A program made the translations under genes and the position numbers. A stretch of 61,635 nt of DNA, the filler included, from Sanchytrium tribonematis (Eukaryota), in assembly GCA_018985235.1 (NCBI GenBank). It is 15 parts of 15 records of this genome, joined end to end, with 100 filler letters (N's around TTAATTAATTAA, not from the genome) between each part and the next. Parts side by side here need not be neighbours in the genome. Positions count along the whole stretch, not along the records: positions 11,771 to 32,479 come from JADGIG010000095.1; 14 more parts are not named here. One strand, 5' to 3'. Below are positions 1,593 to 44,183 of the stretch, one piece after another (position 1 is the first letter of the stretch; each line of letters opens with the position of its first letter). The notes under the pieces were generated by a model, which saw only the letters and a list, made by a program, of their open reading frames with translations, ran no database searches and was not told where the DNA came from.

Positions 1593-2851
1593 ATGATTCA
1601 TAAATTTGCTTATAGCGCCTCGGGCTGCACAAAAAACCTCGACGCTGAGTTACACCCAGTGGTCGAAATGATTGCCCTAGCAGCAGAAAACCGATTTAAG
1701 GGTTTTCTAACAAAGGAGAATGCGAAGTCATCCCTGGCTCGCGATATCTTTGGTTCGGGTCAATTTACCCCCAAGATAAGTCTCCAAGGGGATCCGGCAC
1801 TGGTTAATCCACTTAACCAGTACCTGAATAATGATTTGCCCCCCGAAAAAGATCAGTTAACGATCAAAAAGCGGGCAATCATTTCAGCATTAGAAGAGTT
1901 TTTTAAAGCTTCTATTACTGATGATATTTCTCGTATCAATTCACAACTACACCCCAATAGAACGTATGACTACATGATAAAACTGATCTCTGAAAGAGAT
2001 GGTTTTAGAATGATTCATGAAGAAACACGTTTAGGGATTGAGGAATATTTTCTCAAAGTCGCTCAAACGATTTACGTAAATTTTAATAATTTAGAAGAAA
2101 TATCAACTGGGAATTTACAGTCTAGCACTGTCAAAAGCCCCCTCAAAAGACCCCCTTCCCAAGACGACCCCCATGGACGTCGACACCCCTCCAAAAGGCA
2201 AAAAACCGCCTCCGAAGAAGGGAAAACCAAAAGGGAAAGGGATTCAGAAGCCCCAACCGAAGAAGAAGAAGAAGAATTAATAAATAAATTCATCTTTCAA
2301 AAATCTGATTCGGTATTTAGCTTGTCTTCTGCCATAAACGTGCCTAAATTTATATTTAACGCACTCAATAAAGGAAAAAATTATGTCGGCCATCGCCACT
2401 TCGATTTTTTCGCCGAGAAAGAACAATGTATTAGTCAACTGACTAACATTTTTCCGGAACACAACGAAAATTACATTCGCAACATCTTTATGGCAACCCT
2501 ACCAAAGAATCTTGATATCTACAAAAGAGCAATTTCAGTTCTGAGACCCTCAGTAACGGATTGGCTTATTGATAATCAATGTCTAGCAATACCTAATGAT
2601 AAAAATCTAGGTATATCTATCATCCAAAAGGACGATTATATCAACTTATGTAAATTACATATTTCTGACACCAACAGCTATTCAAAAATTGAGTCTATTT
2701 CTCGCTACGAAGTCGAGAAACAAATTAAGACACTCCATAGCAAATATCATCGCTTACTAGCTGATGAGTTATGGGATAAAATTTTAAATGGCCTAGAACA
2801 CGGATACTATCCTGAATTCAAAGGTCTTCCAAAAATTCACAAGAAAAAATT
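1593..2851 (+). CDS. PLE reverse transcriptase, N-terminal half (continues in frame into position 2 via the terminal overlap)
   Basis: ORF ends ...ADELWDKILNGLEHGYYPEFKGLPKIHKK, identical to the translation from position 2. Contains the PLE-type IPNDKNLGISIIQKDDY motif. Confidence 0.85.
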
Positions 2852-6877: not shown

Positions 6878-8549
6878 ATGTATTCAAGTTCAAATCCTCA
6901 CGAGCAGTCCTGGCATCAGCAAATTACTCCTGATCAGCGCCTTCAAAATATCCAAGATACGGCGCAATTATTAAGTATGTTTGCTGATGAAAATTCAAAA
7001 GAAAAAGTTAATAATATCGCACAACGTTTTGAACACTCTGTATTTGTCTCCGCAACCTCATTGCAAGGATATATTCAGTCTATTCAAATGAAACTATCTC
7101 AGCTACGTTCCAAAGCATATGGCGATGACCAATCTTTAAATACGGTTACCCCCATTTCAACGAACCAAGCTGCTCCTTCACAGGTTAGTTTAAATACCCC
7201 ATCCCAAATAATGCCATCTACTCCTCCTCAGCAACAATTACCAACAAATGCTCCGTCGCAATCAACGGCGCCTCAAAGTGCTACAAGCCCTCAAAGTTTA
7301 ACTATGCCTATTCAAAATGTCCAAATTCATCCTTCTCAGATGCCCCATTCTATGCCTCCTAGTGAGCTATATCAATTATCTCCGCCTCCTGTTCAGGCCC
7401 CACAGCAACAATTTACAAGAAGACAAGTTGAGGCCAGCCAATTAGAACAAATTAGACACTCTACACATGCACTAGCGCAGCTATTTAATCATGCAAATAG
7501 AACTCTTCCTTACCACAAAGCAACGCTTGGAGAACAAAATTGGCAAAAATTTATGACCATCAATCAAATGTATCACCAGCACATGACTGCGCTGCAAGAT
7601 AATCAAGTTGTCTTTTTACACGAACAACTATTACAAGTTAAAGATCACCTAGAACATCTTTTACACAGTACAAATACCATTGAAGCTAATGTTGCGGATT
7701 TACAGCCTCTTCCGTTGAATCCGATGGCAAACCCCAATCAAATGGGTCTTCTCCCACCTGTAACTGATAAAGAAACAGCTTGGATGGACCATGTTCGAGT
7801 GAATGTTTTTGGAATGGCCCAAGACTTGCAGAATTTGAATACGGTTTATGAATTTCCCCGAACAACAATCAAGTCCATAGAAAACGATATTGGGCCTGAT
7901 CACATGGTCAATCCGTTTAATTTATTCGACCAAAAGGAGCTCGACTTCACTAGATTTATAACACATGAGAAAATAGCCAATAAACGAAAAGCAGAAATCA
8001 CTGCTCCTGTGGAAAAGAAACAAAAAGTAATGGATGTCACAAATTTGAAAATGACAGATGTGGGAAACGAATGCGACAATACAGAGCTTGTACATTTTCT
8101 CAATTTAAGCTGGAATATGGCTTGGAGAGGAAAAGAAAGTATTTTACCTGGCTATGTTACAACCTGTATCTCTGATATGAAATCAAATAACAAGAAACCA
8201 ACTAGAGTAATATATTACTGTGGAAAGCCAAATCCAGATGAGTGGTGGCTTGAGCATGATAATTTATTTTTGCGGGTCGTGGGAATCGAATCAGAAGGTA
8301 TTTGTATATAATTTAGGAAATGTATTTCTTATATCATCTCAATATCCCAAAATGGTTAAAGTAGACATGAAATCAAATGATGATAATAGCGGTGTCAGTG
8401 AATGGATAAACAATACATTTATGGACGAATTAGAAAATATAAGCATAAGTAATAGCACGGGAGATAAAAGCGACCTACCGATAAATGTGCGGATAGTGAC
8501 TCTGGACGACTTTCGCTCTATTAGGGGCAATTGCCTTGAAGGATTTTGA
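6878..8549 (+). CDS. Mediator Med15/Gal11-like protein (KIX domain + Q/P-rich); exons 6878-8297, 8317-8549
   Basis: N-terminal KIX-like segment (AQRFEHSVFVSATSLQGYIQSIQMKL) and a Q/P-rich linker. A 19-nt intron joins the ORF to the 8220-8549 frame. Confidence 0.65.
8298..8316 (+). other. 19-nt spliceosomal intron
   Basis: GTATTTGTATATAATTTAG; removal extends the ORF by ~77 codons. Confidence 0.8.
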
Positions 8550-14700: not shown

Positions 14701-15330
14701 TCGTTCAACATCGTGCTTTGATTTTCTGTCAATTAAAAAAAATGATTGAGATTGTTGAAAATGATTTATTTAAAAAGCACATGCCATTTGTTACTTATAA
14801 AAGGCTTGACGGAGATACACCCTCTAATAAGAGGCATGATGTTGTTCAAGAATTTAATGAAGATCCTTCAATAGACTGCCTTTTACTGACGACGCGTGTG
14901 GGTGGGTTGGGATTAAATCTGACTGGAGCAGACACCGTAATATTCGTCGAATCAGACTGGAATCCAATGCAAGACCTGTATATTATATTAATTTAGACAA
15001 GCAATGGATAGAGCTCATAGATTAGGTCAAAAAAATGTGGTGAATGTGTATCGACTAATCACCAGCGGTACCCTAGAAGAAAAAATCATGAACGTTCAAA
15101 GATTTAAAATGAATATTGCAAATGAAATTGTTAATCAACAAAATGCAGGACTTCAGAGTATGGGTACAGATCAGCTTTTAGATCTCTTCGAAATAAGCGA
15201 AGAGCCAATTAAAGTCAAAACAAATACTAACTCTTCCGGTCCTCCTATTTTGCAAGAACTTGGGGAATTGTATGACGATGATCAATATAATGAAAATATA
15301 GATTCTTATATGTCAAAAATAAACAATTAA
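11772..15330 (+). CDS. MOT1: TBP-associated SNF2 ATPase Mot1/BTAF1 (5' truncated); exons 11772-14977, 14997-15330
   Basis: HEAT repeats, [10 protein letters not shown] and LDEGH. The spliced product restores [18 protein letters not shown]. Confidence 0.95.
14978..14996 (+). other. 19-nt spliceosomal intron
   Basis: GTATATTATATTAATTTAG; removal restores helicase motif VI ([10 protein letters not shown]). Confidence 0.95.
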
Positions 15331-15348: not shown

Positions 15349-16209
15349 ATGGATCGTCAGGTTTACGTTGGAAATATCTCACAAGAAACTACTTCAACTT
15401 ATTTGAAAGATTATTTTAGCACTTTTGGAGAAATTGTCAAAGTAGAGTTGCCTGAAAATCCACAAATGCCAGGTCATCATCGCCAAATTGCATTCATTGA
15501 GTTTGAGGAAAAGGAGGATGCTTTACAAGCAGTTGAAAATATGAACAATAATCTGCTACTGAATAGAATTATAAAATGTAGTATTAGTAAGCATAAAGTT
15601 AGAAACTTCTCAAAGCCATTGTGGGAGGATGAGGACTACCTCCAGTTGTATAGCAAACAATTCGAGGGTAATAGCATTAGTGAAATGAATCTGAAGGTGG
15701 AAGGTGAAACGAAGCAGTTGTATTTTACTGTTCAAATAGGGAATATATTGGCTGGTAAAATTATAATTCAAATCAGAAATGACATTGTTCCTAAGACAAG
15801 TGAAAATTTTTTTAAACTAACTACTGGTGAATTAGGATTTGGCTATAAGAATTGCATTTTTCATAGAATTATTCCTGGATTTATGTTGCAATGTGGAGAT
15901 TTTTTAAATAACAACGGAAGTGGTGGTAAGAGTATTTTTGGAGACCAGTTTGACGATGAGAATTTTTCGCTCAAACACACAGGACCTGGAATTGTTAGCA
16001 TGGCAAATTCTGGCAAAAATACAAATTCTAGTCAATTTTTCATAACGACAGTGGCAGCTCCTTGGCTTGATGACAAACATGTCGTTTTTGGTAGGGTTGT
16101 TGATGGAATGGACGTTGTGAAGAAGATAGAAGCTACTGGAAGTAAGGACGGTGTTCCAAGTCAAATAGTTAAAATTATAGATTGCGGTAATTATGAAAAA
16201 GTAATTTAA
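15349..16209 (+). CDS. PPIE: Cyclophilin E (RRM + peptidyl-prolyl isomerase)
   Basis: N-terminal RRM (VYVGNI, AFIEFE); cyclophilin motifs [15 protein letters not shown] and [10 protein letters not shown]. Confidence 0.9.
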
Positions 16210-17115: not shown

Positions 17116-18220
17116 TCATAGTACTTTTCGCATGTTTTCGTAAACCAAATAGCTAATTGAAGCAGCAGGTGCAACTTTGAATAAAGCAGGAGTCAGACCT
17201 CTGTAGAAACCTCGTATGCCATCTTTTTCTTTGGTATGTACGATACATTCCCATGCATTATTATAAGCGACCGGGTGTGCAGAAGTTTTCATTGCCTGAA
17301 GTCTTGATTAGTATAGGTTACCTTGTTCTAATTAAATTCAATGGATAGACAATTGTAGCACTGACTGAGGCACTAAGCATGCCAATGGCTAGAGTTGCCA
17401 AAACTAAAGGCGGCTCCCCAGTTGTTTTTTTATACAGAATTTTGAGAGTCTCGTAAGTTCCCAAATCTATACCAGCATAAGGAATAATGCCCAACAGGGC
17501 GGGAGATACGCCTCTATAGAAAGCTTGTAAACCACCAGAATTATTAATTGACTTGATTACATCAAAAATAGTTGCTCTTTGTTTTGAATTTTTTTGTAAA
17601 GCTATCATGTATCTAGTTTTTAGTGTTTCCAATGGATAAATTGTGAACTGGCTAATAAATCCAGCAATTGAGCCAGCCAGAAATCTACTCCAAGGTGCTT
17701 CTGGTAGTCTCTCTTTTGAGTATTCAAAAAAATGAAATTTTAAAGCAGATTCAGGCATGACCTTCATGCAGTTGATAAAATTACCTCTCCAAAATGACCG
17801 AATTCCATTTTCTTTATAGATAGTGTGGAAAATTGATGAAAATTTGAGCAATCCTGATTCTGTTTGTAAATAAACTTTCATTCTATCTAAAGGAGCAGTA
17901 AATGATCTACTAACAATTCCGGCAATTGAACCAGAGATTGCATTAGTAAATTTGTGCTTAGGGGGTACACTTCCAAATACCCAATAGTGTAATAAATCTG
18001 TCTCTGTGATAATTTTCTGACTGTTAAAAAAATCTTTCCAGTCTTTAAGAGATATACGTCCAAGTTCTGAATGTGGAATTGATTTTATCAGCCGGTCGAT
18101 TTTTTTATCACTCCAGGCTACTTGATTTTTTTTTAAAAAAGCAATAATTTCTTCCTTGGTTATATACATATCGTTATTTGAATCAATCTTTGAAAAAGTT
18201 GAATCAATAATATTTGACAT
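17116..18220 (-). CDS. Ca2+-binding mitochondrial ATP-Mg/Pi carrier (Sal1/SCaMC-like); exons 18220-17322, 17302-17116
   Basis: EF-hands plus PX(D/E)XX(K/R) carrier repeats. Splicing restores [11 protein letters not shown] and the third repeat ([16 protein letters not shown]). Confidence 0.9.
17303..17321 (-). other. 19-nt spliceosomal intron
   Basis: GTAACCTATACTAATCAAG, containing a TACTAAT branch-like motif. Confidence 0.95.
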
Positions 18221-18277: not shown

Positions 18278-20597
18278 TCAACAATAATTTCTCCAAAAGT
18301 CTTGTTCAAAATTGTCAAATGGGAAATCTCTTCCAAATTGCTGGATTAATTGTGACTTATTAAGTGTCAATGTATCGATATCGACAAAATATCGTTCATT
18401 AAAATTAGCCTCACAAAATCCGCGAATCTTTAGAGAAGCATCGTATTGCTCTGATTTTGTATCTCCATAATTTATAAATCCACTGTTCAATTGAACAATG
18501 TTGTCACGCCTTGATATCTAAATTAGCTATAATTACAATTAAGGTATCTTGCAAGGTTGAATTGCACTTCCAGACTTCTCTTAAACCATTGACTAATACT
18601 CCACTTATATTTACACATCTACATTCATTAGCCAGAGTTTTTGAAAGACTCTTGCAATACTCTCTTTCAGTAGTCGTAAAGCCATTTAGATCTTGAACGG
18701 GAGTGTCTGGGTGGTGGGCACTTGCAAGTTTATAGGTGTAAGGTGGATTGTTGATGTCAATCATACCTGCAGTTAAGCTTATACCACACCCAATCGCAAG
18801 TATGAAAAAATAGAGTACTAGTATATCCTGTAATTTTTTATCGATTACCATATCCATATTTTGTAATTCTTTAGCTTCTATATTTAAATACTGGGCTAAA
18901 TGGACCTTTTTCTTGGTAAAATCCCCTTCGGGTCCCATTTCTTCCAATTCTCGCTGAGTTAATTTATGGTGATGTTCCATATCTTTTTTCATCTCTTTTT
19001 CTTTTCTTGATTCAATATATAGGCCTAAAAATATCGCGGCTATCGGCAGTATCATAGTCAATGTGATGACCGGTATCGCAAGCTTTGTTGGGACTGGTAC
19101 ATTGAAGGAAAAGAGAGTAAATATTACCGCATTTAAAACCTGTAATGAGTTGCAAACAATTGAAACGATATCTTCTATTGAGCTAATGTAAGGTCTTGAA
19201 TATGTAGTTATACACAAGGCCACAAAATGAACTACTGTTAAAGAAATAAAAACAGGTCTGGCTCCATCTCGACTTATTCCGATTAATGCAGATATACAAA
19301 CAATTAAAAGTCTGTAAATTAAATAAATCAACTTGTAATTTTTCCACTTCAGTTGAAACATACAATATAGAGACTTGCAGCAGTTCTTCGAACCAGTAGC
19401 TCGGACAATCCATTGGTTCTCCGGATCTTTGCAAATGACAGGAATTTCAACAATAAATTTGGAACAAGTTTTAGTCAATTTGTAGAAAAGCAACGGCATG
19501 CCAATTGTGATCAATATAAACATTAAGACTACCCCGATGGAAAAGTATTGCAATATATCACTATGGTATGTTATAGTTTTATCTGCCCTAAAAAATAATT
19601 CATCCTCAAAATTAATATTCTTGGCAAGTCCGAGATTTGTGAAATTAGAAGCAGTGGTGGACACATTAAACATGGGAATACAACCGTCTGATCCACCAGT
19701 ATATGGTTGGAATGGCATTTTCATTTTTAAAATTCCATTTTCACATTGTTCATGTTGTACGTAATTGGAGCCCAGAATCATTTTGAAAGCAGAAATCGTA
19801 ATAGGAACATAAAGCAATGACATAAAAATTAGTATAATTTTCACCACATCTTTTCTAAATGCATAATTGAGTTTTGTGTTAAAGTTTCTACCTCTCGAAG
19901 ACATATTTGATATTACATTGTACATCAACACCAGTCCAAATATCACCAATAGCCCATAAATTTGTCCGTTTGCACCAAAAGAGGCCAATCCGATGGTAAA
20001 TAAAACGAATCCTAACAAAAGATTTCGTAATTGTCTCCAAAATGACTTTTTGTGAACGAATTTTAATCCCTTGAGATACTTAAATTTTTCAAGATCGATT
20101 TCATCAGCATCCAAGTTAACAGTACTTCCCACTGCAGTGTTGATTTTTTCCTGGACTTTTTTTTTCTGTCTTCTTTTCTGAAAATAATGGGAAATTGCTA
20201 TTAGAAATAATACAAAACCACACAATACCATTATAAGTATTCCAGATATGTCGCTTGTTTGCCCACCTAATAACTTGATTATTAAACCAAATATAAAACC
20301 GAAGAAACAAACAGCAGTTAAAGTGTATTTCAAAATTGTAAATACTGATCTGAAACTAAAAAGGATTGTTAAAGAAATCAAAATTGGAACAACGTGGGAA
20401 ATAAATAGATGCTGTGTTCTAATATCAACCTGGTCTATGTTAAATAATTTTAGTCCGACGGTAAAATCAAAGTTGAAAAACTGTAGAAATTGAACATAGC
20501 CCTTGTATTCGTCTGGCCAAGCTATGTCTTGACCGGCCGCTACAGACAAAAATTGAGCATTCATCATCAGGATTTCAACAACAGAAGAAACTCCCAT
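18278..20597 (-). CDS. Multi-pass membrane protein (TRP-C/GPCR-like); exons 20597-18537, 18517-18278
   Basis: More than 10 hydrophobic segments. A 19-nt intron joins the 697-aa ORF in frame to 18490-18278. Confidence 0.7.
18518..18536 (-). other. 19-nt spliceosomal intron
   Basis: GTAATTATAGCTAATTTAG; frame-restoring. Confidence 0.85.
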
Positions 20598-20708
20598 ATT
20601 CTATCACCTTTGACCTACTCACTTTTTTCGTTTCTAATTTTGAAATTTATAATGAATGTTAATCTTGAGATCAGGATTGCATTAGTTAGATTAAACGTAG
20701 AAATAATC

Positions 20709-22245: not shown

Positions 22246-23710
22246 CTAATTTTCTTTCTCAGAGTTATCCAAATGTAATGGAAGGACTGTATGTTTTTGA
22301 GACACAACAGGAACATGATCTGCTCTTTTTTTAACAGATGCGTTAGATAGTACATTAGTAAAATAAATTCTGCTTGGTTCTTCCAAATAGTAGTGAACAA
22401 TAGTTGCCACAACAATAGCTAATGCCGATACCTTGTAGATGTCGAGGTTGCTAAACACAAACAATTTGTTTTCATTCAGACATTTTAAAATTAATAGCAC
22501 AGGATAATGTGACAAGTATATGGAGAAACTAATTTTCCCCAGGAAGACCAAAACTTGATTTGCCAAGACTCTGGACACTAAAAAAGCATTGTCAAGGCAC
22601 AAGAACAAGCATACGGAATAGGAGACTATATTAAGTCTGGTGATTTCGAATTGTGTCGTAAAATGGCCATCATCATCTACAAGTACCAATTCTTTGAAAT
22701 TTAGTAACAAGTAAAGTGACAAGCAATCAAATATTAAGCGTATTGGTTTAAGACTAATTTTGATCCACCCCAATAGCTTCACCGCAAGAACACCTGCAAA
22801 GAAGGCATAAAAAAGGGGCCCAACCATAGTTCCGGTACCAAGCTGAGCGCTGCGATAACCAACATAGGCCATCAATTCAAAAGCGAAGACATTCACATAA
22901 TTAGGGCAAAATCTAATGAATAAAAACATAATAATATTAATAATCCACTCTGCAGACAAACTCCAAGAAGGGATATTACATCCTGCATTCAATTCCCAAC
23001 TTTCAAAGTAAGAATGCCAATAATGAGTCAAGGTGTAACATCTGTAAATAAGATCAGGAGAAACCCTTGCTCTCCAGCTTGCATCGTACATCTCGCCTAT
23101 GTATACGGTGCACACCATGTAAACTGTTGCGCAAATCCAATGTAATGGATAAAACCTTGCAGCACGACTAACCATCAACTCGTAAAGGTTTCCAGACCTT
23201 TTAGAATTCCAGTACACCTTTCCTAAAATATGCCCACTAAGTACAACAAAAAAAGGAACCATAATGTTACCCAAATGACTGAAGTAAAATAATACATGTT
23301 CTGGATCATTTTGTACAGATTTGACATAACTCTCTTCACTAAACTTAACAGAGTCTAGTGTATGATACACTACTTATTTAATTTAAATTACCAACAAGTA
23401 GCGCTGCAATTCCTCGTAATGCGTCCAAGTGTCCCAACCTCTGTTTTGTTTCATACCACATAAACCTTTTTGGAAAATATGATGTACAATATCTTGTCCA
23501 TTTGTCCCATAGTATTACTATTTTTGAATACACCGGAATCAAATTGTCATATTCTACAATAAAACAACCTAATTTTCCAAGCAACAGAATAACAATTACA
23601 AAAGGTGGAATTCCTATATGCATTAAAAATGAGCGACTCATTATTATTACACAAAAAAGTGTAATTAAATAAATACAAAATTTGTTTAATTCTTTGTTTT
23701 GTTGAAGCAT
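22246..23710 (-). CDS. Acyltransferase family 3 (OafA-like) membrane protein; exons 23710(or 23461)-23392, 23372-22246
   Basis: Splicing gives LDALRGIAALLVVVYH. Other motifs: FFVVLSG, RAARFYP, WSLSAE, LGKISFSIYLSHYP. Confidence 0.9.
23373..23391 (-). other. 19-nt spliceosomal intron
   Basis: GTAATTTAAATTAAATAAG; restores the family motif LRGIAALLVVVYH. Confidence 0.92.
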
Positions 23711-26032
23711 CAGAAATTGACCCAGTAGGACGCGCGAGATTTATACTTTAAAAAAAGGCCATAACATTACACGACGCGAAACAATTGCGTTGAGGCTCAA
23801 GTTTTCAATTGTATCTTAACAATTTTGGAAAATTACTAAAATCAAAGCTCCTCGCAATCACACGTCTCACGTAGAAGAGGCTCCAAATATGAATGTAAAA
23901 TGGATATTCATCTCGAAATTCCACCTGAAAATTATAAATAAATTTTGTAACTAGTTGGAAATAGCTTCCATATTATATAAAGTCGATTAAAGAACCTGTT
24001 CAATTCCCCTCAAATCTGCTATATGGATGTATGTTGGGAAACCAGAAACGGTTGCCAAAAAGCTGCAAATGTAGTTCTTATTTTAGGTGGTTTCAAAGAA
24101 AAAACTGATAATACATTTATGATTGCAAATAAGAAAAATGAAACAACAAGTGCAGCTAAATTAAACATTATTAAGATCAAAGAAGATTGCACTATAGAAT
24201 ATACTAAAATAATGCCGACTCTGTGTATCTAATTCCGGCAATGGTATTTTAATTTTTACCAACAAATGCCATATCTAAAGTAACGAATCTCTTTTTTGTT
24301 TCATATTTCACTGGCATATCCCAGACGATTAAGGTAAATTCGTAATTATTAAAGCATTAAATAAATAGGATCTACAAACAATTCACAATTCTATACACCC
24401 ACAAATCTACTTCCACCAATACTAATAATGTATGAAGAACTTTTATTACTGTTCCATTAGAAACTTTTATACTGAACAAATTTGCAATTTAAGGAAAAAT
24501 TCTGGTTATAAAAAGTATTAAAAAACCACCTATTGGTAATTTGAGAAAATGGATTGTAGTGTATTGAAATCAAGTTCCACTTTCATTATTTAAAATGGAT
24601 TAGAAAGATTTTACTTCAGTGGAAATATTGAAGGCTTGCACTTGGCAAAAGCCAATGACTTGAGTTTTAATTATTAATTTAAAAAGAGATTTTTTAAATG
24701 CATTAGAAAGAGTTCAAATGTTTAACAAAGCTATGGATTTTTGAGGTGAAAATCCAGCATATTCTTGCTCATTTAATATTTGCAACGATATTGATATTAC
24801 TGATGATTAATCCCAGTTTTTGACTTTGAAAAACAAATTGAAAAGCCAGAAGTTATGGTTCATTTATTGTTAAGTGAAGAAGAATAAAAGATTGATTTAA
24901 TGGAACATTTATTACTTTGGAGGGGAATAATTTTTTTTTATAGTCAAAATCCTATCTGATTCCCGCGAGGAACTGGATTTGTAAACACTTTATTTAAAAG
25001 TCATTTTACCTGCCTTGTCAAAAGCGTGAAACTGTTATGAGCACTACTTTGATTTCTAGCTATGCTACAATTTGCTGTAATGTTTTTGATGGATCTTCTA
25101 ACAACATATTATGTATTTGTAATCCATGATGAACGTCTAATATGGGTTGCGACAAAAATGTGACATAGCAGTATCTATAAAACTATAGCTAATTGAAATT
25201 GCAACACAACTGTCCCCCAAGTTTGCGTTTACTATCATTTGTTTGGACTCATTAAATCACAGGTTTATACTTTTGACATATTGCACTGTCTTGCTGAATA
25301 TAGATCATTGTGAGAATAGTGTGATTCCTAAAAATCTTTTTCCATGATATGAAAACATCCCTAAGCACAACTTTTGTTTCCAAATGCTTTATAAGTGTAT
25401 CAATTTTATTAAGACCAAAATAAGTCCAACTTGTATCAAATGACAAAATCAAAATATTTTCAAATAATCATTTTCCAAAAGTCAAGGTCAAAATCATTTG
25501 GGGTTTTAAAATGGTAAATATGAAGAAAACAAATTTCCAATCAAGGGTGCATTTGGTTGATATTAATTCAAGAATCCCTTATAAAGTAAAATTTATGATG
25601 TATAACTATTTCATTTTTTAGCAATGCAACCTTCTCTTTAATATATACATATCCAACAATTTTGTCTGACCTCAATTAATATTGATTAGTGAGACACTTG
25701 GCAGCCATTTCTTATAACGATTTTAACCCGCAAAATGACTAAACAAAATAAATAATGGAAATTTAGAGTGCTTTTTCATTTATTGATTATATTGTAGCCT
25801 TGGTAGCTTGAGAATTCGTTGCTATATGAATTTAGTGCTTGTAAGTCGAGGTCTCTCAGATTATTTGCAACTTCTAGCATATTTCCTTCAATTTCCTTTT
25901 TAAATTCACTCAGCCCCATTATTTTTAATCCATTTACCCTTGAGATGGTTGTTGTGATGGAACGTTCTGTTGGTCTCATTAATAAGATAAAATTAATGAT
26001 AAAGGCCTTTTTTGGAGTTGAAACTGTGACAA

Positions 26033-27323
26033 ATGCGCTATGACAGACAAATTAGAATTTGGAACAAATCAGGCCAGGACAAAATACATCACTCAAAAGT
26101 CCTTTGCCTAGGAGATGGATATATATTATGGGAAGTTTTAAAAAATTTAACACTGGGTGGTTTTGGTACATTATTTGTAATGGAAACTGACTTTATTAAA
26201 TCTAAAATTTCACAGATTCAGTTTTTCAACCCCGAGGTGAATGTGATAATCGTTAATCAATCAAGCATATTAGATATAAAGCCAGACATGGTTTTGGAAC
26301 TTAATTATATTGGTAAAGTTATCGATTCAGTTCATTTTCGAGACATACCGAGTCTAAAGGCATATAGCAACGGATTTTATGGCTACATAAGTACGGAATT
26401 TGATGGATTCATTGCTAGGAAGAAAGAAAAACATATTGACTTAATGATACGAAATCCGTTTAAAGGACTTAAGGATTACTTTGAATCATTTAATTTAGAC
26501 AAATTGAATGATTACGAATATGCGCACGTGCCCTATCCAGTATTTTTGTATAAAGTTCATATATCCTTGGGTGAGAATCCTTCGCGAGCAGCAATACGTT
26601 CCACACTTAAAACATTTATCCGTGCTGGTGTCGAAATGGACAATATTCAGGAGGCAATCGACCATGCTTACTACCTCTTTCAGAAAGATATAGATGGCAA
26701 TGTAGTAGATCTTTTTTCTAATATTGACAAATTAAAAGATCCCCTTAAATCAATAATAACTTCCGTATCCAATTTTTATGCAAAAAATGGCCGACTTCCA
26801 GTCTCAATAGACATTCCGGATCTAAAAGCTACAACCGGAGAATACTTGAAATTCAAAAATTTGTATTCTTCTCAATTTGATTTGGATTGTCGAGAAATCC
26901 AAAATGATTCTATAAATTACCTTGATTGTGAGGATGTTAAAGAAATATGTAGAAATATAAGAGACTACAAATTTTGCGAAGGATCTGTCGTTCATTATAA
27001 ACAATCAACTAAATTTGAGGAGCCTTTTAAAGTGGAAATTGAACCATTCGAATTATTTTCATTCTTAAATCTTCATCGACAATACCGCGTTCGTAATCAG
27101 ACATTTCCCCAGAATTATAATCAATTAAATTGTGATGGTGTTTTAAAAGGGTAGATCATGTTTATTTAGATCCCTCTGCAATGGTGAGATATTTGGAACT
27201 TCGGCTGTACTTGGAGGAATGATTGCTCAAGAAGTAATTAAGCTAACCACGCAACAATATCTACCTTTAGAATCTGCAGTGGTATTTGACGGGCTAAATT
27301 GTAAAGCTGGTAAAGTTTTTTAA
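26033..27323 (+). CDS. ULA1: NEDD8-activating enzyme regulatory subunit (Ula1/APPBP1); exons 26033-27150, 27170-27323
   Basis: RYDRQIRIW, EVLKNLTLGG and HVPY; spliced C-terminus SAVLGGMIAQEVIKLTTQQYLP. Confidence 0.85.
27151..27169 (+). other. 19-nt spliceosomal intron
   Basis: GTAGATCATGTTTATTTAG; restores the conserved GGxxAQEVIK tail. Confidence 0.9.
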
Positions 27324-29508: not shown

Positions 29509-30787
29509 TTATGATAGGTAAGATTTGGTCAAGCATTTCACATTACAATACTTAGAGTTCTGGGAACACCATGGCGCGTAGTTATAAAAGTCAACGTTGT
29601 TAAGCTCTGTGGCAACTACTCGTACAATAGATTTAGTCAAATTGTTATCCAAAGGATCTTGGGAAAGTTCCCAAAACATCATACCACCAAGATCCATAGC
29701 TTCTACATAGTCGATCTTGTACCGCACAGATACATTATCTTCATAACTAACAAAAAGTCCTTTGTTCGCATTGTAAATATATGGCGCCTTGGCAACAGCA
29801 TCAAAATATCTCACATTATTAGAATCCGACAAATCGCTAAGAATTTGATTATAAGTCACCCATCCGTCACAACCTCCACTTAAGCAATCAAGTTTGCGAA
29901 AAAGTCCATGCATTTTTGTATCGCCTTTAAGAACGGGGTAGGAATGTCCATAAAGAGGTACGCCCACCACTATCTGGTTCTTTTTTACGCTATTTTGCAG
30001 CAAGAACTTAACGGTTGTGTCAACTGAATAATCACCATTTGGATCTGCCGAATTTCTGTAAAGCGGTGCATGATGTGTGCCATATCCAGATCCTATACTT
30101 ACATCGTAACTCATCACGTGAAACCAACTTATATATTGCGCAGATTGACTCAACTTGTAGTTCGCTAAAGTTGATTGTGCAACGGGAATAGCAGTTGTAA
30201 GCTGGTATCCCGCGCCATTTGGTAATCCATTCAATTTAGCTCTCAAGTCTCTCATCAAACCAACATACATAGTGCCTTCATAGTCATTTTGAGGATACTC
30301 CCAGTCTAATTTAATAGAAAATACCAATGTCAATTCCATCCAAACCATATTGAACCACTAAATCAATTGCCGAATTTATAAAATTGGTTTTCTTTGTCGA
30401 ATCTCCTATAACAGGCGCAAAGTTGCCGGACCAAGAATAGCCCCCAATACTAAGCAATATTCTAAGGTGTGGATATTCTTTCCTTAATTGGAATAGGAGA
30501 TTGTAATTTCCTTTCGCGCAACAATTGCAATCGTCAACTATCTTTGTAACTTTATGAACATCATCATCCGTTCCAGGCGTCACATTCCCCGAACTGACAT
30601 CAATATTGGCAAATGAATAAGCTAAATGTGTATAATAATCCCCGTTTAATTTTCTGATATCGATACCTCCCCAATAACTCAGATACCCGACAATAACTCT
30701 TTTGGTGTTTGTATCTCTGGGTGCTACATTATAGTCTCCGATATCAAATTGACTGGCAGCAACTTGCAGCACAAAAGAAAAAAGCAT
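29509..30787 (-). CDS. Secreted GH18 chitinase; exons 30787-30325, 30305-29509
   Basis: LLSIGGYS, spliced DGIDIDWEYP, VMSYD, GGMMFWELSQD. Confidence 0.95.
30306..30324 (-). other. 19-nt spliceosomal intron
   Basis: GTATTTTCTATTAAATTAG; lies inside the catalytic DxDxE codons. Confidence 0.96.
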
Positions 30788-31681: not shown

Positions 31682-31859
31682 CTGTTTAATGGAGTGGACC
31701 AGAACAAATTATATCAGATGGTCGCCAAATAGCGTCATTAATCACCTAATACACAAAAAGAAATTCGTCATGCAATCTTTTTCTTTGAAATTGCCCTTAT
31801 AGGTACTTTGAGAATTTCTCACTGTTACCGTATTGAAAAAAGTTACTAATTAAAGGAGA

Positions 31860-32479
31860 ATGTTTGATAATTTTGTGGGTATATTATTGATTCTAAACAT
31901 GGCTTTTTGGGTCACTCAACCTATGAATAAAAGCGAAACCTTTGCTATGATAAAGCCAGATGGATATCATGCAACTTTAGACATTTTGAAATATTTGGAA
32001 AAGCATGGATTTGAAATTCAAAAAAAGAAAACATTAATTTTGTCAAAAGAGCAAGCTGAACTATTCTATGAAGAGCATAGTAAAAAGATATTTTTTCGAG
32101 ACCTGATAAGATATATTACCAGTGGCCCTGTAACAGTATTATCTCTTACGAAAGTGAATGCAATTGAGGACCTGAGGAATTTATTAGGAAACACAGACTC
32201 AAATGAAGCTAGAATTGAAAGTCCAAGCTCTATTAGGGCTATATATGGCACAGACAAAGAGAAAAACGCATGTCATGGCTCGGACAGCATTGTTGCAGTT
32301 GAAAGGGAAACGAATTTCTTTTTCAAGTGTGACCCTATCAACTTAATCACGACTGATATCAAAACTCTTCGGTTTTTAGAAGAACAAATTTATCCAACTT
32401 TAACACAATGCCTCGAGGAGCTAATCAAAGACAAACCAGAAGACCCAGTGCGATTTCTTGGCAATTTGCTTATAAAATT
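31860..32479 (+). CDS. Nucleoside diphosphate kinase with C-terminal Dpy-30 motif (NME5/RSPH23-like), 3' truncated
   Basis: TFAMIKPDG and NACHGSDS, followed by FLEEQIYPTLTQCLEELIKDKPEDPVRFLG (Dpy-30). Confidence 0.8.
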
Positions 32480-32579
32480 NNNNNNNNNNNNNNNNNNNNN
32501 NNNNNNNNNNNNNNNNNNNNNNNTTAATTAATTAANNNNNNNNNNNNNNNNNNNNNNNNNNNNNNNNNNNNNNNNNNNN

Positions 32580-32657
32580 GGGGGAGTTGAGTATACAGTC
32601 GTATTTACTCACTCAAGTCCCCCCGGGGAAGTTGAGCTGGAGGGGGAGTTGAGCTGG
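32580..32657. repeat. G-rich direct/inverted repeat cluster
   Basis: GGGGRAGTTGAG occurs three times. The first copy pairs with ACTCAAGTCCCCC (1 mismatch). Confidence 0.7.
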
Positions 32658-32658
32658 T

Positions 32659-34269
32659 AAAGACTTTATAACCAATAAACTACCAGCTGATTGGCAATTG
32701 TCAACAGTAATCGAGATCTTCAAGTCAGGCAATCACTTGCAACCTGACAGATATAGACCCATCTCTCTAATCTCAACGGGATTCAAAATCTACCAACAAA
32801 TGATTTACCACTCAAGATTTCGTAAATTATTATTCCCAGGCCCGAGACATGGATTCACCAAATCCCGCTCTACAGCATCCCAAATCCACTCTTTAATTTT
32901 AACCATGAAGCGCTTTTACTCATCTCATGGCAAAGTATATGCCGTGGCACTAGACCTGTCAACAGCCTTTGACTGTTTAAAGCATCAAGATGTATTTCAT
33001 CATGTCCATTCCCATCTTGATAATCATGACACAAATATTTTGAGGCAGATCATTACAAATCAATCATTTTATCTGAGAAGAGATCCTAACAAAACTGCAA
33101 TACCAATGCGAAGAGGAACTCCCCAGGGAGGGACTCTTTCTCCATTGGTCTTTGCATTTGTGATGGATCGCATTTTAGAAGAAATTCCCATCTCTGATGA
33201 TTACGCATTATTTCTCTATGCGGATGACCTGATTATATGTACACATGATTACAGATCGCTTCAAAACATAACAAATATGACTACATCTTTGTTGATTGAC
33301 CATGGCTTTAAAACAAAAGATTCCAAATTTCAATTTATAACTACAAATGATGAAATAGAAGGACTGCTGCTCCAAAATAACATATTTATTCCCACTCAAT
33401 CAAATATGATGTACCTAGGAGTAGTTTTAAATGCATATGGTATTGATTACGAAGCCGATATTAAATTAAAACTACAAAAAGTGAATTTTGCAATCTCACA
33501 AATATCTTGGACAAACCGACTTCTTCAATTTAAACAGTCATTCTATCGCTTTTATAAGGGTATTATATGCCCAATATATGGATATAACATTGAAAATTAT
33601 GATGATAATGGCCTGGATATGCTTGAGCAACATCGCACAAAAATGATAAAATCATTACACAGAAACAAGTACAGATATTTCCAATATATTCACAATTATT
33701 ATACGATACATCATCTATATGCTTCTAAAGTCATTAATTTTAACAAACAACTGACAGAACTAGGAATGAATGAAATAGACTGCACATTTATGAATAGAAA
33801 GGATATCAACTATAGCAATCAATTAAATATGGAATGGGAATGGAATAACCAACCTGATCAGTATCGAGCATCAGAATTCAAATCACACCATAAAATTTTA
33901 AAAATGGCTGTTAGAAAAAATCCAACACATCTCCAAGTTTTGTACGACGGATTTTTATCTGGCACTTTACCTAGAAAACCTATTGGAAACCAAGAAATTA
34001 AATGCAGCTATTGTCATAAGAATTTTGAGGGACTAGATCATTTTCGAAATACTTGCAGCTACACTGAAATGGAATATAAAACCAGAGAATCCATTTATAA
34101 AACACTACAAAGTACTTCAAAAAGAAGAATTACTAAGGAGTTGAAATTCTTGAGGGATTCAAATTACTGCAGATCTGATTAATTAGACATATTAAATGCA
34201 CAAGGATGTGTTTAAAAACCACTTTTATCATGCAGCATTTGATTAAGTAAATTTATTATATATATATAT
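32659..34269 (+). mobile_element. 5'-truncated non-LTR (LINE) retrotransposon; ORF2 RT to 34182, 3' UTR ending in (TA)n
   Basis: LPADW..IFK, YRPISLIS, LDLSTAFD, GTPQGGTLSP, YADD and a CX2CX7HX4C knuckle; TA run at ~34257-34269. Confidence 0.88.
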
Positions 34270-35968: not shown

Positions 35969-36103
35969 ATGTAGTCATTGATAATAACACACTTGAACAC
36001 TGCATAGTTTAGGAAAAATCAAATCAAATCAGTCAATGTCACTAAAATCATTGACTTAGTGAATCTAAATTCAAATATTTGTGTGGCTTATTTTTGAAAC
36101 AAA

Positions 36104-36688
36104 ATGAAACGAGCTTCTGATGCGTTCTCTAAATCATCGATAGAAAAAGTCCAATTAAAAGCAGGTGATACCGTTCCAGTGGACTCCGTTAAAACCATAG
36201 ATAATATTGAAATACCGCTAATAAACAGCCATGGAAAAGTTCATTTAAATTTAAGAAGATTTTCAGGTTGCCCGCTTTCCAATCTGAATATGCGTGAAAC
36301 TGCAAGAGAATTATCAACTATACAAAGTGCTGGTATACGTGAAGTCATTGTTTTACACTCTGATCCTGAGGTAATTATGGAAAATCAAGGGACTGCTGAA
36401 TGGGCAAAAGGCATTTCATTTGTAAGTGACCCACATAAAATAATATATAAAAAGTGTGGTGCTGGGACTATGCCAGGTGGATTTGAGAAAGTGAAGCACT
36501 TGGTAGACGAGGGAATGAAATTAGTTTGTGGATTTAAAAAAGGAAATTTATGTGAGCAAACAGATTTGCATCAATTACCCATGGAATTGATAGTGGACTG
36601 TACAGATGGGACCATTATAGCAGTGCATTATGCAGAAGATCCCCATGATCAATGGACTGCTGAAGAAATCGTTAATTTAGTAAAATAA
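36104..36688 (+). CDS. AhpC/TSA-like redoxin, copy 2 (CxxS)
   Basis: LKAGDTVP, HLNLRRFSGCPLSN, FVSDPHKIIYK. Confidence 0.85.
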   Translation: MKRASDAFSKSSIEKVQLKAGDTVPVDSVKTIDNIEIPLINSHGKVHLNLRRFSGCPLSNLNMRETARELSTIQSAGIREVIVLHSDPEVIMENQGTAEWAKGISFVSDPHKIIYKKCGAGTMPGGFEKVKHLVDEGMKLVCGFKKGNLCEQTDLHQLPMELIVDCTDGTIIAVHYAEDPHDQWTAEEIVNLVK

Positions 36689-36818
36689 ATATTTTGGAGA
36701 ATTTATTACAAACACGCGATTTGAGCATTCTGGTATTTATTTAAGCTTGTCATTATTATGTCCAGCATGTGCGCGCGTCAATGAATCACAGAATCCAAAT
36801 GGCTCTAATTTGAAACAA

Positions 36819-37375
36819 ATGCCATCTTCAGAGGTTATTTTAAAAGTTGGGGACACAGTTTCTATCACGACACTTACAACCATTGACAACAAGCAAGTTA
36901 AATTAAAGAATAGTACAGGTCTATTACATCTCAATTTACGTAGATTCTCAGGTTGTCCGATTTGTAACACGTTGATGCGTGAAATTGCTCAAGAATTGCC
37001 CAGAATTAAGTCTGCTGGTGTTAGAGAGGTATAGTATTACATTCTGATGCAGATATCATCAAAGAGAATCAAGCAAGTGCCAAATGGGCTCAAGATTTAG
37101 AATTTGTTGCTGATCCCGCAAGATATTTATATCGTCTATTCGGTGCAAAAGAAATGAGTGAGAGTGGATTTGATAAAGTCAAGCACATTATTGATGAGGG
37201 CATGAAGTATGTGGGTGGCTTCAAACGTGGTAATTTGGCAGATCAAAAAGATTTGCTGCAACTTCCCATGGAAATGTTGATTGATTGTACGAACGGGAAG
37301 ATTAGAGCAATTCATTATGGTGAAAATCCATACGATCAATGGTCTGCGAGTGACATCATCAACTATGCCCAATAA
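36819..37375 (+). pseudogene. AhpC/TSA-like redoxin, copy 3 (CxxC), with a 1-nt frameshift at ~37030
   Basis: RRFSGCPICN; GAG GT ATA GTA TTA CAT lacks one base relative to the paralogs' EVIVLH. Confidence 0.7.
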
Positions 37376-42477: not shown

Positions 42478-44183
42478 ATGAGTGATCAAAATGCAACTAG
42501 AATTGCGATTGTAAATGATGAAAGATGCTTGCCAAAAAAATGCAACTTAGAATGCAAAAGAAGTTGCCCGGTTGTTCGAATGGGAAAGCTCTGTATTGAA
42601 GTTACAAAAACAGATAAGTTGGCCGCTATCTCAGAATCTCTTTGTATAGGTTGCGGTATTTGCGTCAAGAAATGTCCTTATGAAGCAATCACTATCATTA
42701 ATTTACCAACAAATTTAAATCAGCACACAACTCATCGCTACTCTCAAAATTCTTTTAAACTGCATAGACTGCCAGTTCCTAGAAATGGACAGGTATTAGG
42801 GCTCGTCGGTCAAAATGGTATTGGAAAAAGCACAGCGTTAAAAATTTTGAGCGGTAAATTGAAGCCAAATTTAGGGCAATTCGACACTCCTCCTGAGTGG
42901 ACTGATATTTTAAAGTATTTTCGCGGATCAGAATTGCAGACATATTTTACAAAATTGCTAGAAGAAGAGTTAAAAGCTATCATTAAGCCACAATATGTTG
43001 ACCAAATTCCAAGAATGGTTCGTGGCAATGTTGAAGATTTGTTAAAGGGAAAGCATACTTCAAAAGAAATAACATTTGACAAAGTTATTTCCCTACTAGA
43101 CCTTAAAGATGTTCTCGGTCGTCAAGTTGATCAATTATCTGGCGGAGAGCTGCAACGTTTTGCTATTGGAATCGCAGTTATTCAAGCTGCCGACCTGTAC
43201 ATGTTTGATGAGCCTTCTTCTTACCTTGATGTAAAGCAACGCTTGAATGCTGCAAAGACTATAAGAATGCTACTTAACCAAGACCGATACGTTATTTGTG
43301 TTGAACACGATTTGAGTGTGCTCGATTATTTAAGCGATTTTGTTTGTGTCTTGTATGGCATGCCAAGTGCGTATGGAGTTGTAACAATGCCCTACTCGGT
43401 TCGTGAAGGTATAAATATATTTCTGGATGGTCACATTCCAACAGAGAACATGCGATTTCGTACTGATGCTCTGCAATTTAAGATTGCAGAAAACGCAGAC
43501 GACATGAAGATAGAAAAGCAGGTCTATTATGATTATCCATCGATGCATAAGACTCTCGGATCATTCAAACTGGCAATTGATGCTGGAAGGTTTTCAGATT
43601 CTGAAGTGGTTGTTTTATTGGGAGAAAACGGTACTGGTAAAACAACTTTTATTAGATTACTCGCAGGTGCAATAAAACCTGATGAAGACGATGTTGATAT
43701 TCCTGAATTAAGAGTGTCGTACAAGCCACAAACGATTGCTCCTAAATTTCCTGGATCGGTGAGGATGTTGTTCTTAAAGAAAATCAAGCACTCTTTCATG
43801 CACCCACAATTTCAAACAGATGTTGTAAAACCACTTAAAATTGACCACCTTCTAGACAATGAAGTTCAAACTTTATCTGGAGGAGAACTACAAAGAGTTG
43901 CCATTATTTTATGTCTGGGTCAAAGCGCTGATATCGTAATTTTGATTAATTTAGTATCTAATTGACGAACCTTCGGCTTACTTAGATTCCGAGCAACGTA
44001 TTATTGCTGCTAAAGTTATTAAACGTTTTATCATTCATTCCAGAAAAACTGCCTTTATTGTTGAACATGATTTTATCATGGCAACGTATTTAGCTGATAG
44101 TGTTATTGTCTATGATGGTTCTCCAGGTATTGATGCACATGCCAATACACCACAACCACTTTTATCGGGAATGAACGCGTTTT
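42478..44183 (+). CDS. RLI1: ABCE1/Rli1 ribosome recycling ATPase (3' truncated); exons 42478-43935, 43955-44183
   Basis: FeS clusters (CKRSCP, CIGCGIC) and two ABC domains. Splicing restores [14 protein letters not shown]. Confidence 0.97.
43936..43954 (+). other. 19-nt spliceosomal intron
   Basis: GTAATTTTGATTAATTTAG; restores Walker B (YLIDEP). Confidence 0.97.

What the first reader, a model, noticed from the sequence alone, without database searches (positions are those of the whole stretch)
17303..17321. Branch point at a fixed position: T12-W-A14 in all ten micro-introns
Seen: all ten introns have GTA at 1-3, T at 12, A at 14 and AG at 18-19. Position 10 is a purine and position 11 a pyrimidine in 9/10 (examples TACTAAT, GCTAAT, GCTTAT). 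There is no room for a polypyrimidine tract. Inference: the branch A lies 6 nt from the 3' end, the same offset as in Stentor micro-introns, giving a ~14-nt lariat loop. That loop is too small for simultaneous canonical U1 and U2/SF3b footprints, which predicts altered U1, U2AF or SF3b components.
Basis: partly seen in the sequence, partly recalled or inferred. Interest (0 to 1): 0.7.

Follow-up and report, generated by a model that had tools for sequence, protein, structure and literature searches.

The report
Fixed branch point in 19-base introns
Ten genes of a sanchytrid (a tiny fungus from a group that parasitises algae) each carry a 19-base insert with T eight and A six bases from its end; that A is likely the splicing branch point, which would make a loop of only 14 bases, far below the roughly 50 that human splicing needs.

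Summary
Observation confirmed. 17303-17321 (minus strand) is a 19-nt GT-AG insert in a calcium-binding mitochondrial carrier gene. Ten such inserts all have GTA, T12, W13 and A14. Homology alone pins six junctions, and no shuffle of 200,000 gave an invariant T-x-A. The organism is a sanchytrid fungus. Positions 10-15 pair best with the canonical U2 GUAGUA box when A14 is bulged, so A14 is likely the branch point; no RNA was available. Read-through tails of relatives' truncated proteins keep A14 in 6 of 6 that fit 19 nt. Two exclude T12/A14 but fit 21 nt with T(-8)/A(-6), so the signal is likely anchored to the 3' end. The -6 offset matches Stentor and the yeast Yarrowia. The steric argument is sound, but it does not predict lost or altered U1, U2AF or SF3b. 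Stentor, with a shorter loop, keeps all of them by BLAST, whereas no U1 was identified in Mikrocytos. Those genes could not be tested here. One sequence hint of change: G at +5 is absent in 10 of 10. This scan already found the same intron class, and this T12/A14 rule, on other pieces of this genome. Verdict: a new fungal member of a known tiny-intron kind.

The parts
17303..17321 (-). Focal 19-nt GT-AG intron (phase 2) in a calcium-binding mitochondrial carrier (SCaMC/SLC25A23-25 type); T12 = 17310, likely branch A14 = 17308; 3' site is AAG
   Evidence: Ties for best of 458 frame-restoring deletions scored against 60 carriers, and is the only top-scoring one with GT-AG ends. Four relatives stop at the same place. 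No indel in run X1 contigs.
17322..18220 (-). SCaMC exon 1 (EF hands and two carrier repeats)
   Evidence: Pfam Mito_carr and EF-hand; P0242
17116..17302 (-). SCaMC exon 2 (rest of the third carrier repeat)
   Evidence: Pfam Mito_carr profile positions 33-92, E 1.6e-12
14978..14996 (+). 19-nt intron (phase 2) in Mot1/BTAF1, in the helicase C-terminal motif
   Evidence: Exon 1 aligns to residue 1754 and exon 2 starts at residue 1755 of the same solved chain, 7z7n_E/6g7e_B
30306..30324 (-). 19-nt intron (phase 1) in a GH18 chitinase, splitting the catalytic DxDxE
   Evidence: Split codon aligns to residue 169 and exon 2 starts at residue 170 of 6epb_A; also 134/135 of 1ll6_A
43936..43954 (+). 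19-nt intron (phase 0) in ABCE1/Rli1
   Evidence: Rank 1 of 895 frame-restoring deletions; three relatives stop at the same place
54448..54466 (+). 19-nt intron (phase 0) in kinesin-14
   Evidence: Ties for best of 1219 deletions; 12 of 117 distant kinesins break at the same site with a GTN-type codon
23373..23391 (-). 19-nt intron (phase 1) in an Acyl_transf_3 gene; AAG scores above a TAG 3 nt further on
   Evidence: Ties for best of 589 deletions, 58.1 bits against 51.6 for the 22-nt form; profile of only four bacterial homologues
27151..27169 (+). Likely 19-nt intron (phase 2) in NAE1/APPBP1
   Evidence: Both exons match E1-type chains including NAE1; shortest GT-AG that joins them; exact length not pinned
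18518..18536 (-). Likely 19-nt intron (phase 0) in an unnamed membrane protein
   Evidence: Exon 2 resembles homologues' C-termini and relative P0329 stops at the same residue; the 19-nt form ranks only 790 and 747 of 957 on two profiles, so length is not pinned
54818..54836 (+). Likely 19-nt intron (phase 1) in a Slo/BK-type K+ channel gene
   Evidence: Joins a short ATG exon to a 331-codon channel frame; a 16-nt GT-AG alternative exists; not pinned by homology
8298..8316 (+). Likely 19-nt intron (phase 1) in a KIX_2 (Med15-like) gene; the one exception to R10/Y11
   Evidence: Frame join only; 13-, 16- and two other 19-nt GT-AG alternatives exist; no homology test

Best explanation
Ten genes carry 19-base GT-AG inserts with an invariant T at -8 and A at -6; these are likely ordinary U2-type spliceosomal introns shrunk to their bare signals, in which the A is likely the branch point, bulged from a short helix with a likely unchanged U2 GUAGUA box. 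Layout (shown): 5' site at 1-6 (GUA, mostly W-W, then U; no G5), a free linker at 7-9, branch region R-Y-U-W-A-U at 10-15, two bases, then AG. Inferred steps: (1) U2 pairs with positions 10-15 only, with no extended helix. (2) The 3' site is the first AG at a set distance after the branch, so extra bases in longer relatives fall on the 5' side. (3) Because 14 nt cannot hold U1 and U2/SF3b together in the human way, the 5' site is likely held weakly or in turn (U1 leaves, or passes it to U5/U6, before the sharp loop closes). The likely adjustments are trimmed peripheral, branching or step-2 factors, as in Stentor, not loss of U1, U2AF or SF3b. The product would be a 14-nt lariat loop with a 5-nt tail.
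For: Motif-blind junction tests give the 19-nt GT-AG form for ABCE1, kinesin-14 and SCaMC, the acyltransferase, Mot1 and GH18. A14 is the only invariant A among positions 4-17; A13 is T in 3 of 10. With A14 bulged, 47 of 60 positions can pair with GUAGUA, against at most 41 in ten other registers. Leaving out T12 and A14, 37 of 50 pair against 25.5 in shuffles (p 0.0005). Of 13 relatives' tails, 6 fit 19 nt and all 6 force A14 (T12 forced in 3, possible in 3). Two (P0002, P0329) exclude T12/A14 and fit 21 nt with T(-8) and A(-6) forced. The kinesin site is shared with 12 of 117 distant kinesins, so it is likely an old intron position. The window encodes a full RRM-cyclophilin PPIE (E 4e-82 to 5mqf_o), which the Stentor table lists as an NTC-related protein with no S. 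cerevisiae counterpart. Stentor and other heterotrichs keep the core machinery.
Against: No RNA holder was listed, so neither splicing nor branching is shown. No snRNA gene lies in the window and no genome was available, so 'unchanged U2' and 'U1 kept' rest on analogy. The 21-nt reading assumes the relatives' stop codon is the intron's terminal TAG; longer introns cannot be excluded. Two tails of one cluster (P0122, P0327) exclude T12 and end too early to place the 3' end; three are uninformative. G5 is absent in 10 of 10, which fits a changed U1 or U6 equally well. Four of ten inserts are not pinned by homology, and two unresolved frame breaks would lack the motif if they were introns (47356-47372 and 45773-45798). 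One AT-rich look-alike sits in frame inside an open reading frame (2076-2094).
Confidence: 0.68

Rival explanations
1. Same introns and same branch A, but the early spliceosome is rebuilt: U1 snRNP is lost or has a changed 5' end, and U2AF, SF1 or SF3b are cut down, so U2 and U5/U6 find the intron alone.
For: G5 is absent in 10 of 10, where canonical GUAAGU pairs with U1 ACUUAC (bioRxiv 10.1101/2022.06.08.495308, passages). Only U2, U4, U6 and 17-19 proteins were identified in Mikrocytos, which has 16-17-nt introns. C. merolae lacks U1 (PMC10158995, passages). Entamoeba has a co-evolved U1. An unchecked note reports a truncated SNRNP27 in this genome (e1-10419771).
Against: Stentor and Blepharisma have similar GTAAWW-type 5' ends and shorter loops yet keep U1 and, in Stentor, U2AF, SF1 and SF3b. 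U6 of the intron is kept in 9 of 10, the base that pairs with canonical U1. Most lineages with atypical donors keep a standard U1. PPIE is retained.
Confidence: 0.22
2. The inserts are spliced, but T12/A14 is not the branch site: branching uses A13 or varies, and the motif is a protein-binding or stop-codon signal.
For: A13 is present in 7 of 10. In phase-1 introns positions 12-14 form a codon, TAA in 3 of 4. In myxobolids the conserved A's move with intron length.
Against: The motif holds in all three phases (4 phase 1, 3 phase 2, 3 phase 0) and reads TTA in the fourth phase-1 case. Three introns have no A13. The R10/Y11/U15 pattern is what wobble pairing with GUAGUA allows in the A14 register only.
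Confidence: 0.06
3. The inserts are not removed (broken genes, assembly errors, or introns spliced too poorly to matter).
For: No RNA evidence. Short E. cuniculi introns are spliced below 20% on average, and predicted T. hominis introns failed validation (PMC6349667, passages).
Against: They interrupt conserved cores of ABCE1, Mot1, a chitinase active site and a kinesin motor. Relatives at 51-89% protein identity break at the same residues. Run X1 contigs show no indel over six of them (possibly the source data, so not independent).
Confidence: 0.04

Closest known systems
Heterotrich ciliate tiny introns: Stentor coeruleus 15-16 nt (PMC9505925, sections 2.1-2.6 and Table 1 read) and Blepharisma GTAAWWTTTATWTAG (PMC13685798, passages)
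   Same: GTA start, AT-rich interior, putative branch A six from the 3' end, 5-nt tail, near-fixed length, no G5 in the commonest motifs.
   Different: 19 nt with a 14-nt loop against 15-16 nt with a 10-11-nt loop. A clear U2-complementary R-Y-U-W-A-U here, while Stentor has no strong branch consensus. A fungus, not a ciliate. Introns here lie mostly near gene 3' ends, in Stentor near 5' ends.
Mikrocytid introns, Mikrocytos mackini 16-17 nt (PMC10245619, passages)
   Same: Small parasite, very uniform length, conserved internal sequence.
   Different: Rhizarian, with a highly reduced spliceosome (no U1 or U5 identified) and RNA support. The state of the sanchytrid spliceosome is unknown.
Constrained branch-to-AG introns of Yarrowia lipolytica (2 nt between TACTAAC and AG), Trichomonas and Giardia (4 nt) (PMC2483917, passages)
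   Same: No pyrimidine tract; branch anchored to the 3' AG. The Yarrowia spacing equals A at -6, so this 3' geometry is already known in a fungus.
   Different: Yarrowia introns are long, so there is no tight loop; the sanchytrid branch motif is degenerate.
Microsporidian short introns, Encephalitozoon cuniculi about 25 nt (PMC6349667, passages)
   Same: Fungal-side parasite, GT-AG, very short.
   Different: About 6 nt longer, few in number, often next to the start codon, spliced below 20% on average.
Bigelowiella natans nucleomorph 19-nt introns (PMC2483917, passages) and myxobolid 22-27-nt introns (PMC13644364, first third and passages)
   Same: Same or similar length.
   Different: Nucleomorph introns were reported to show no branch signature; in myxobolids the conserved A's drift from the AG as length grows.

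Membership tests
U2-type spliceosomal intron | GT...AG ends | tested here: met
   10 of 10
U2-type spliceosomal intron | Exact removal restores the conserved protein | tested here: met
   6 of 10 pinned by homology; 4 of 10 by frame only or unpinned
U2-type spliceosomal intron | Branch motif able to pair with U2 GUAGUA with a bulged A | tested here: met
   Best register at A14; p 0.0005 without T12/A14. Computed against the canonical box, not this organism's U2.
U2-type spliceosomal intron | Position shared with relatives | tested here: met
   4 of 4 genes searched have relatives that stop at the same residue
U2-type spliceosomal intron | Removed from mRNA through a lariat at the branch A | not testable with these tools
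   No RNA holder listed
U2-type spliceosomal intron | U1, U2, U4, U5, U6 snRNAs and core proteins in the genome | not testable with these tools
   No genome held; no snRNA in the window; only PPIE seen
U12-type intron | 5' site RTATCCTT and branch TCCTTAAC (consensus recalled, from no call) | tested here: not met
   0 of 10 have ATCC at positions 3-6
Heterotrich-type tiny intron | Putative branch A six bases from the 3' end | tested here: met
   10 of 10; Stentor values
Heterotrich-type tiny intron | Length 15-16 nt in a heterotrich ciliate | tested here: not met
   19 nt; sanchytrid fungus. Works like it, is not a member.
Sanchytriomycota (lineage) | Closest named relative is a sanchytrid | tested here: met
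   ABCE1 87% identical to Amoeboradix gromovi P0121 against at most 73% for other named fungi; SCaMC 72% and kinesin 57% to A. gromovi. Long-branch clade with P0002 and P0003 in a quick tree that did not include P0121. Species not determined.

The most novel reading that the evidence does not exclude
Sanchytrid fungi have a rebuilt early spliceosome that works without a canonical U1 snRNP (lost, or with a co-evolved 5' end matching the G5-less donor). It finds introns by a six-base U2 helix and measures the 3' site from the branch, the first such case in a fungus outside microsporidia.
Probability: 0.2. Interest if true: 0.78.

Novelty: new member of a known kind. Interest (0 to 1): 0.5.

Why it matters
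Human spliceosomes need about 50 nt between the 5' site and the branch. A fungal lineage with likely 14-16-nt loops and a readable U2-type branch motif is a natural test of how small the lariat loop can be and which factors must change. Its relatives among fungi are well studied, so the comparison is cleaner than for ciliates or mikrocytids. I found no description of sanchytrid introns in print (searches; the library lacks most subscription journals). In practice, public proteins for these fungi stop inside the introns (P0001, P0121, P0123, P0242, P0246), which can bias gene-loss counts for the group.

Tried and rejected
No whole genome was held, so the spliceosome inventory and a genome-wide intron set could not be made. 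No RNA holder was listed; this says nothing on expression. The metagenome scan returned 2 loci, L001 and L002, nearly identical to each other, from an intron-rich fungus of 45-46% GC and not a sanchytrid; dropped. Rfam gave 0 matches at gathering and 1 weak miRNA match at E 0.47; ARAGORN gave 0 tRNAs. The careful ABCE1 tree did not finish; the quick tree places the clade on a long branch without a resolved sister. The deletion test could not pin the 18518 junction. None of the ten inserts folds (0.0 kcal/mol), so a hairpin signal was rejected. Stop-codon selection as the cause of T-W-A was rejected because the motif holds in all phases. The frame break near 37030 is a 1-nt deletion relative to the neighbouring paralogue, not an intron. 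Of 47 frame-join clusters, 9 are called introns; the kinesin intron fell outside the 25-codon filter. I set the other 38 aside as gene boundaries or off-frame joins, viewing 13 regions; two remain unresolved. A word search of earlier findings for sanchytrid snRNA or Prp8 notes returned nothing. Supplements of the papers were not read; intron logos there (PMC10245619 Fig. 3 and PMC13685798 Fig. S4) could bear on the comparison.

Full report
Setting. The window is AT-rich (GC about 0.30-0.37) and gene-dense, made of contig pieces joined by N spacers. The genes are eukaryotic and fungal-like. ABCE1 exon 1 has two unnamed relatives at 89% (P0002, P0003). The 90% cluster of P0002 holds Amoeboradix gromovi P0121, which is 87% identical to the window protein; other named fungi reach 73%. 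The kinesin and the carrier also have A. gromovi among their nearest hits. So the organism is a sanchytrid; I did not determine the species. The sanchytrid genome paper (PMC8371127, passages) predicted open frames on contigs with TransDecoder, and its only hit for 'intron' is in a reference title.

Noticed in passing
window, ten introns: 7 of 10 introns lie at 0.83-0.91 of the visible coding length (three of those genes are cut by contig ends), the opposite of the 5' bias reported for Stentor and E. cuniculi. My frame-join search needed 60 upstream codons, so 5' introns could be under-counted.
   Followed up: partly
window 15349-16209 +: Intronless full-length PPIE/Cyp33 (RRM plus cyclophilin), a spliceosome-associated protein, starting about 20 bases after the Mot1 stop.
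   Followed up: partly
window 36098-36688 + and 36684-37375 +: Tandem AhpC/TSA-like paralogues; the second has a 1-nt deletion near 37030 that is also in run X1 contigs.
   Followed up: yes
window 2076-2094 +: AT-only intron look-alike with T12-A-A14, in frame inside a 445-codon reading frame without Pfam match. The frame's end resembles a Penelope-type reverse transcriptase start (recalled, not tested). Removal would shift the frame to an early stop.
   Followed up: partly
window 45773-45798 - and 47356-47372 -: Two unresolved frame joins (26 and 17 nt GT-AG) at the ends of a DUF6625 gene and an 853-codon gene; neither has both T(-8) and A(-6). They may be gene boundaries.
   Followed up: partly
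window 22246-23740 -: Acyl_transf_3 gene with bacterial plasmid homologues at 21-28% identity carries one of the introns; eukaryotic homologues were not searched, so its origin is open.
   Followed up: partly
window 18278-20600 -: Membrane protein of an unnamed family: 176 representatives at E up to 0.001, and no Pfam match for 7 homologues tested. One full-length paralogue, P0330, is named Sanchytrium tribonematis.
   Followed up: partly
window 31854-32531 + and 32653-34182 +: NDK with Dpy-30 domain (likely the flagellar NDK5 type; recalled) and a reverse transcriptase frame.
   Followed up: no
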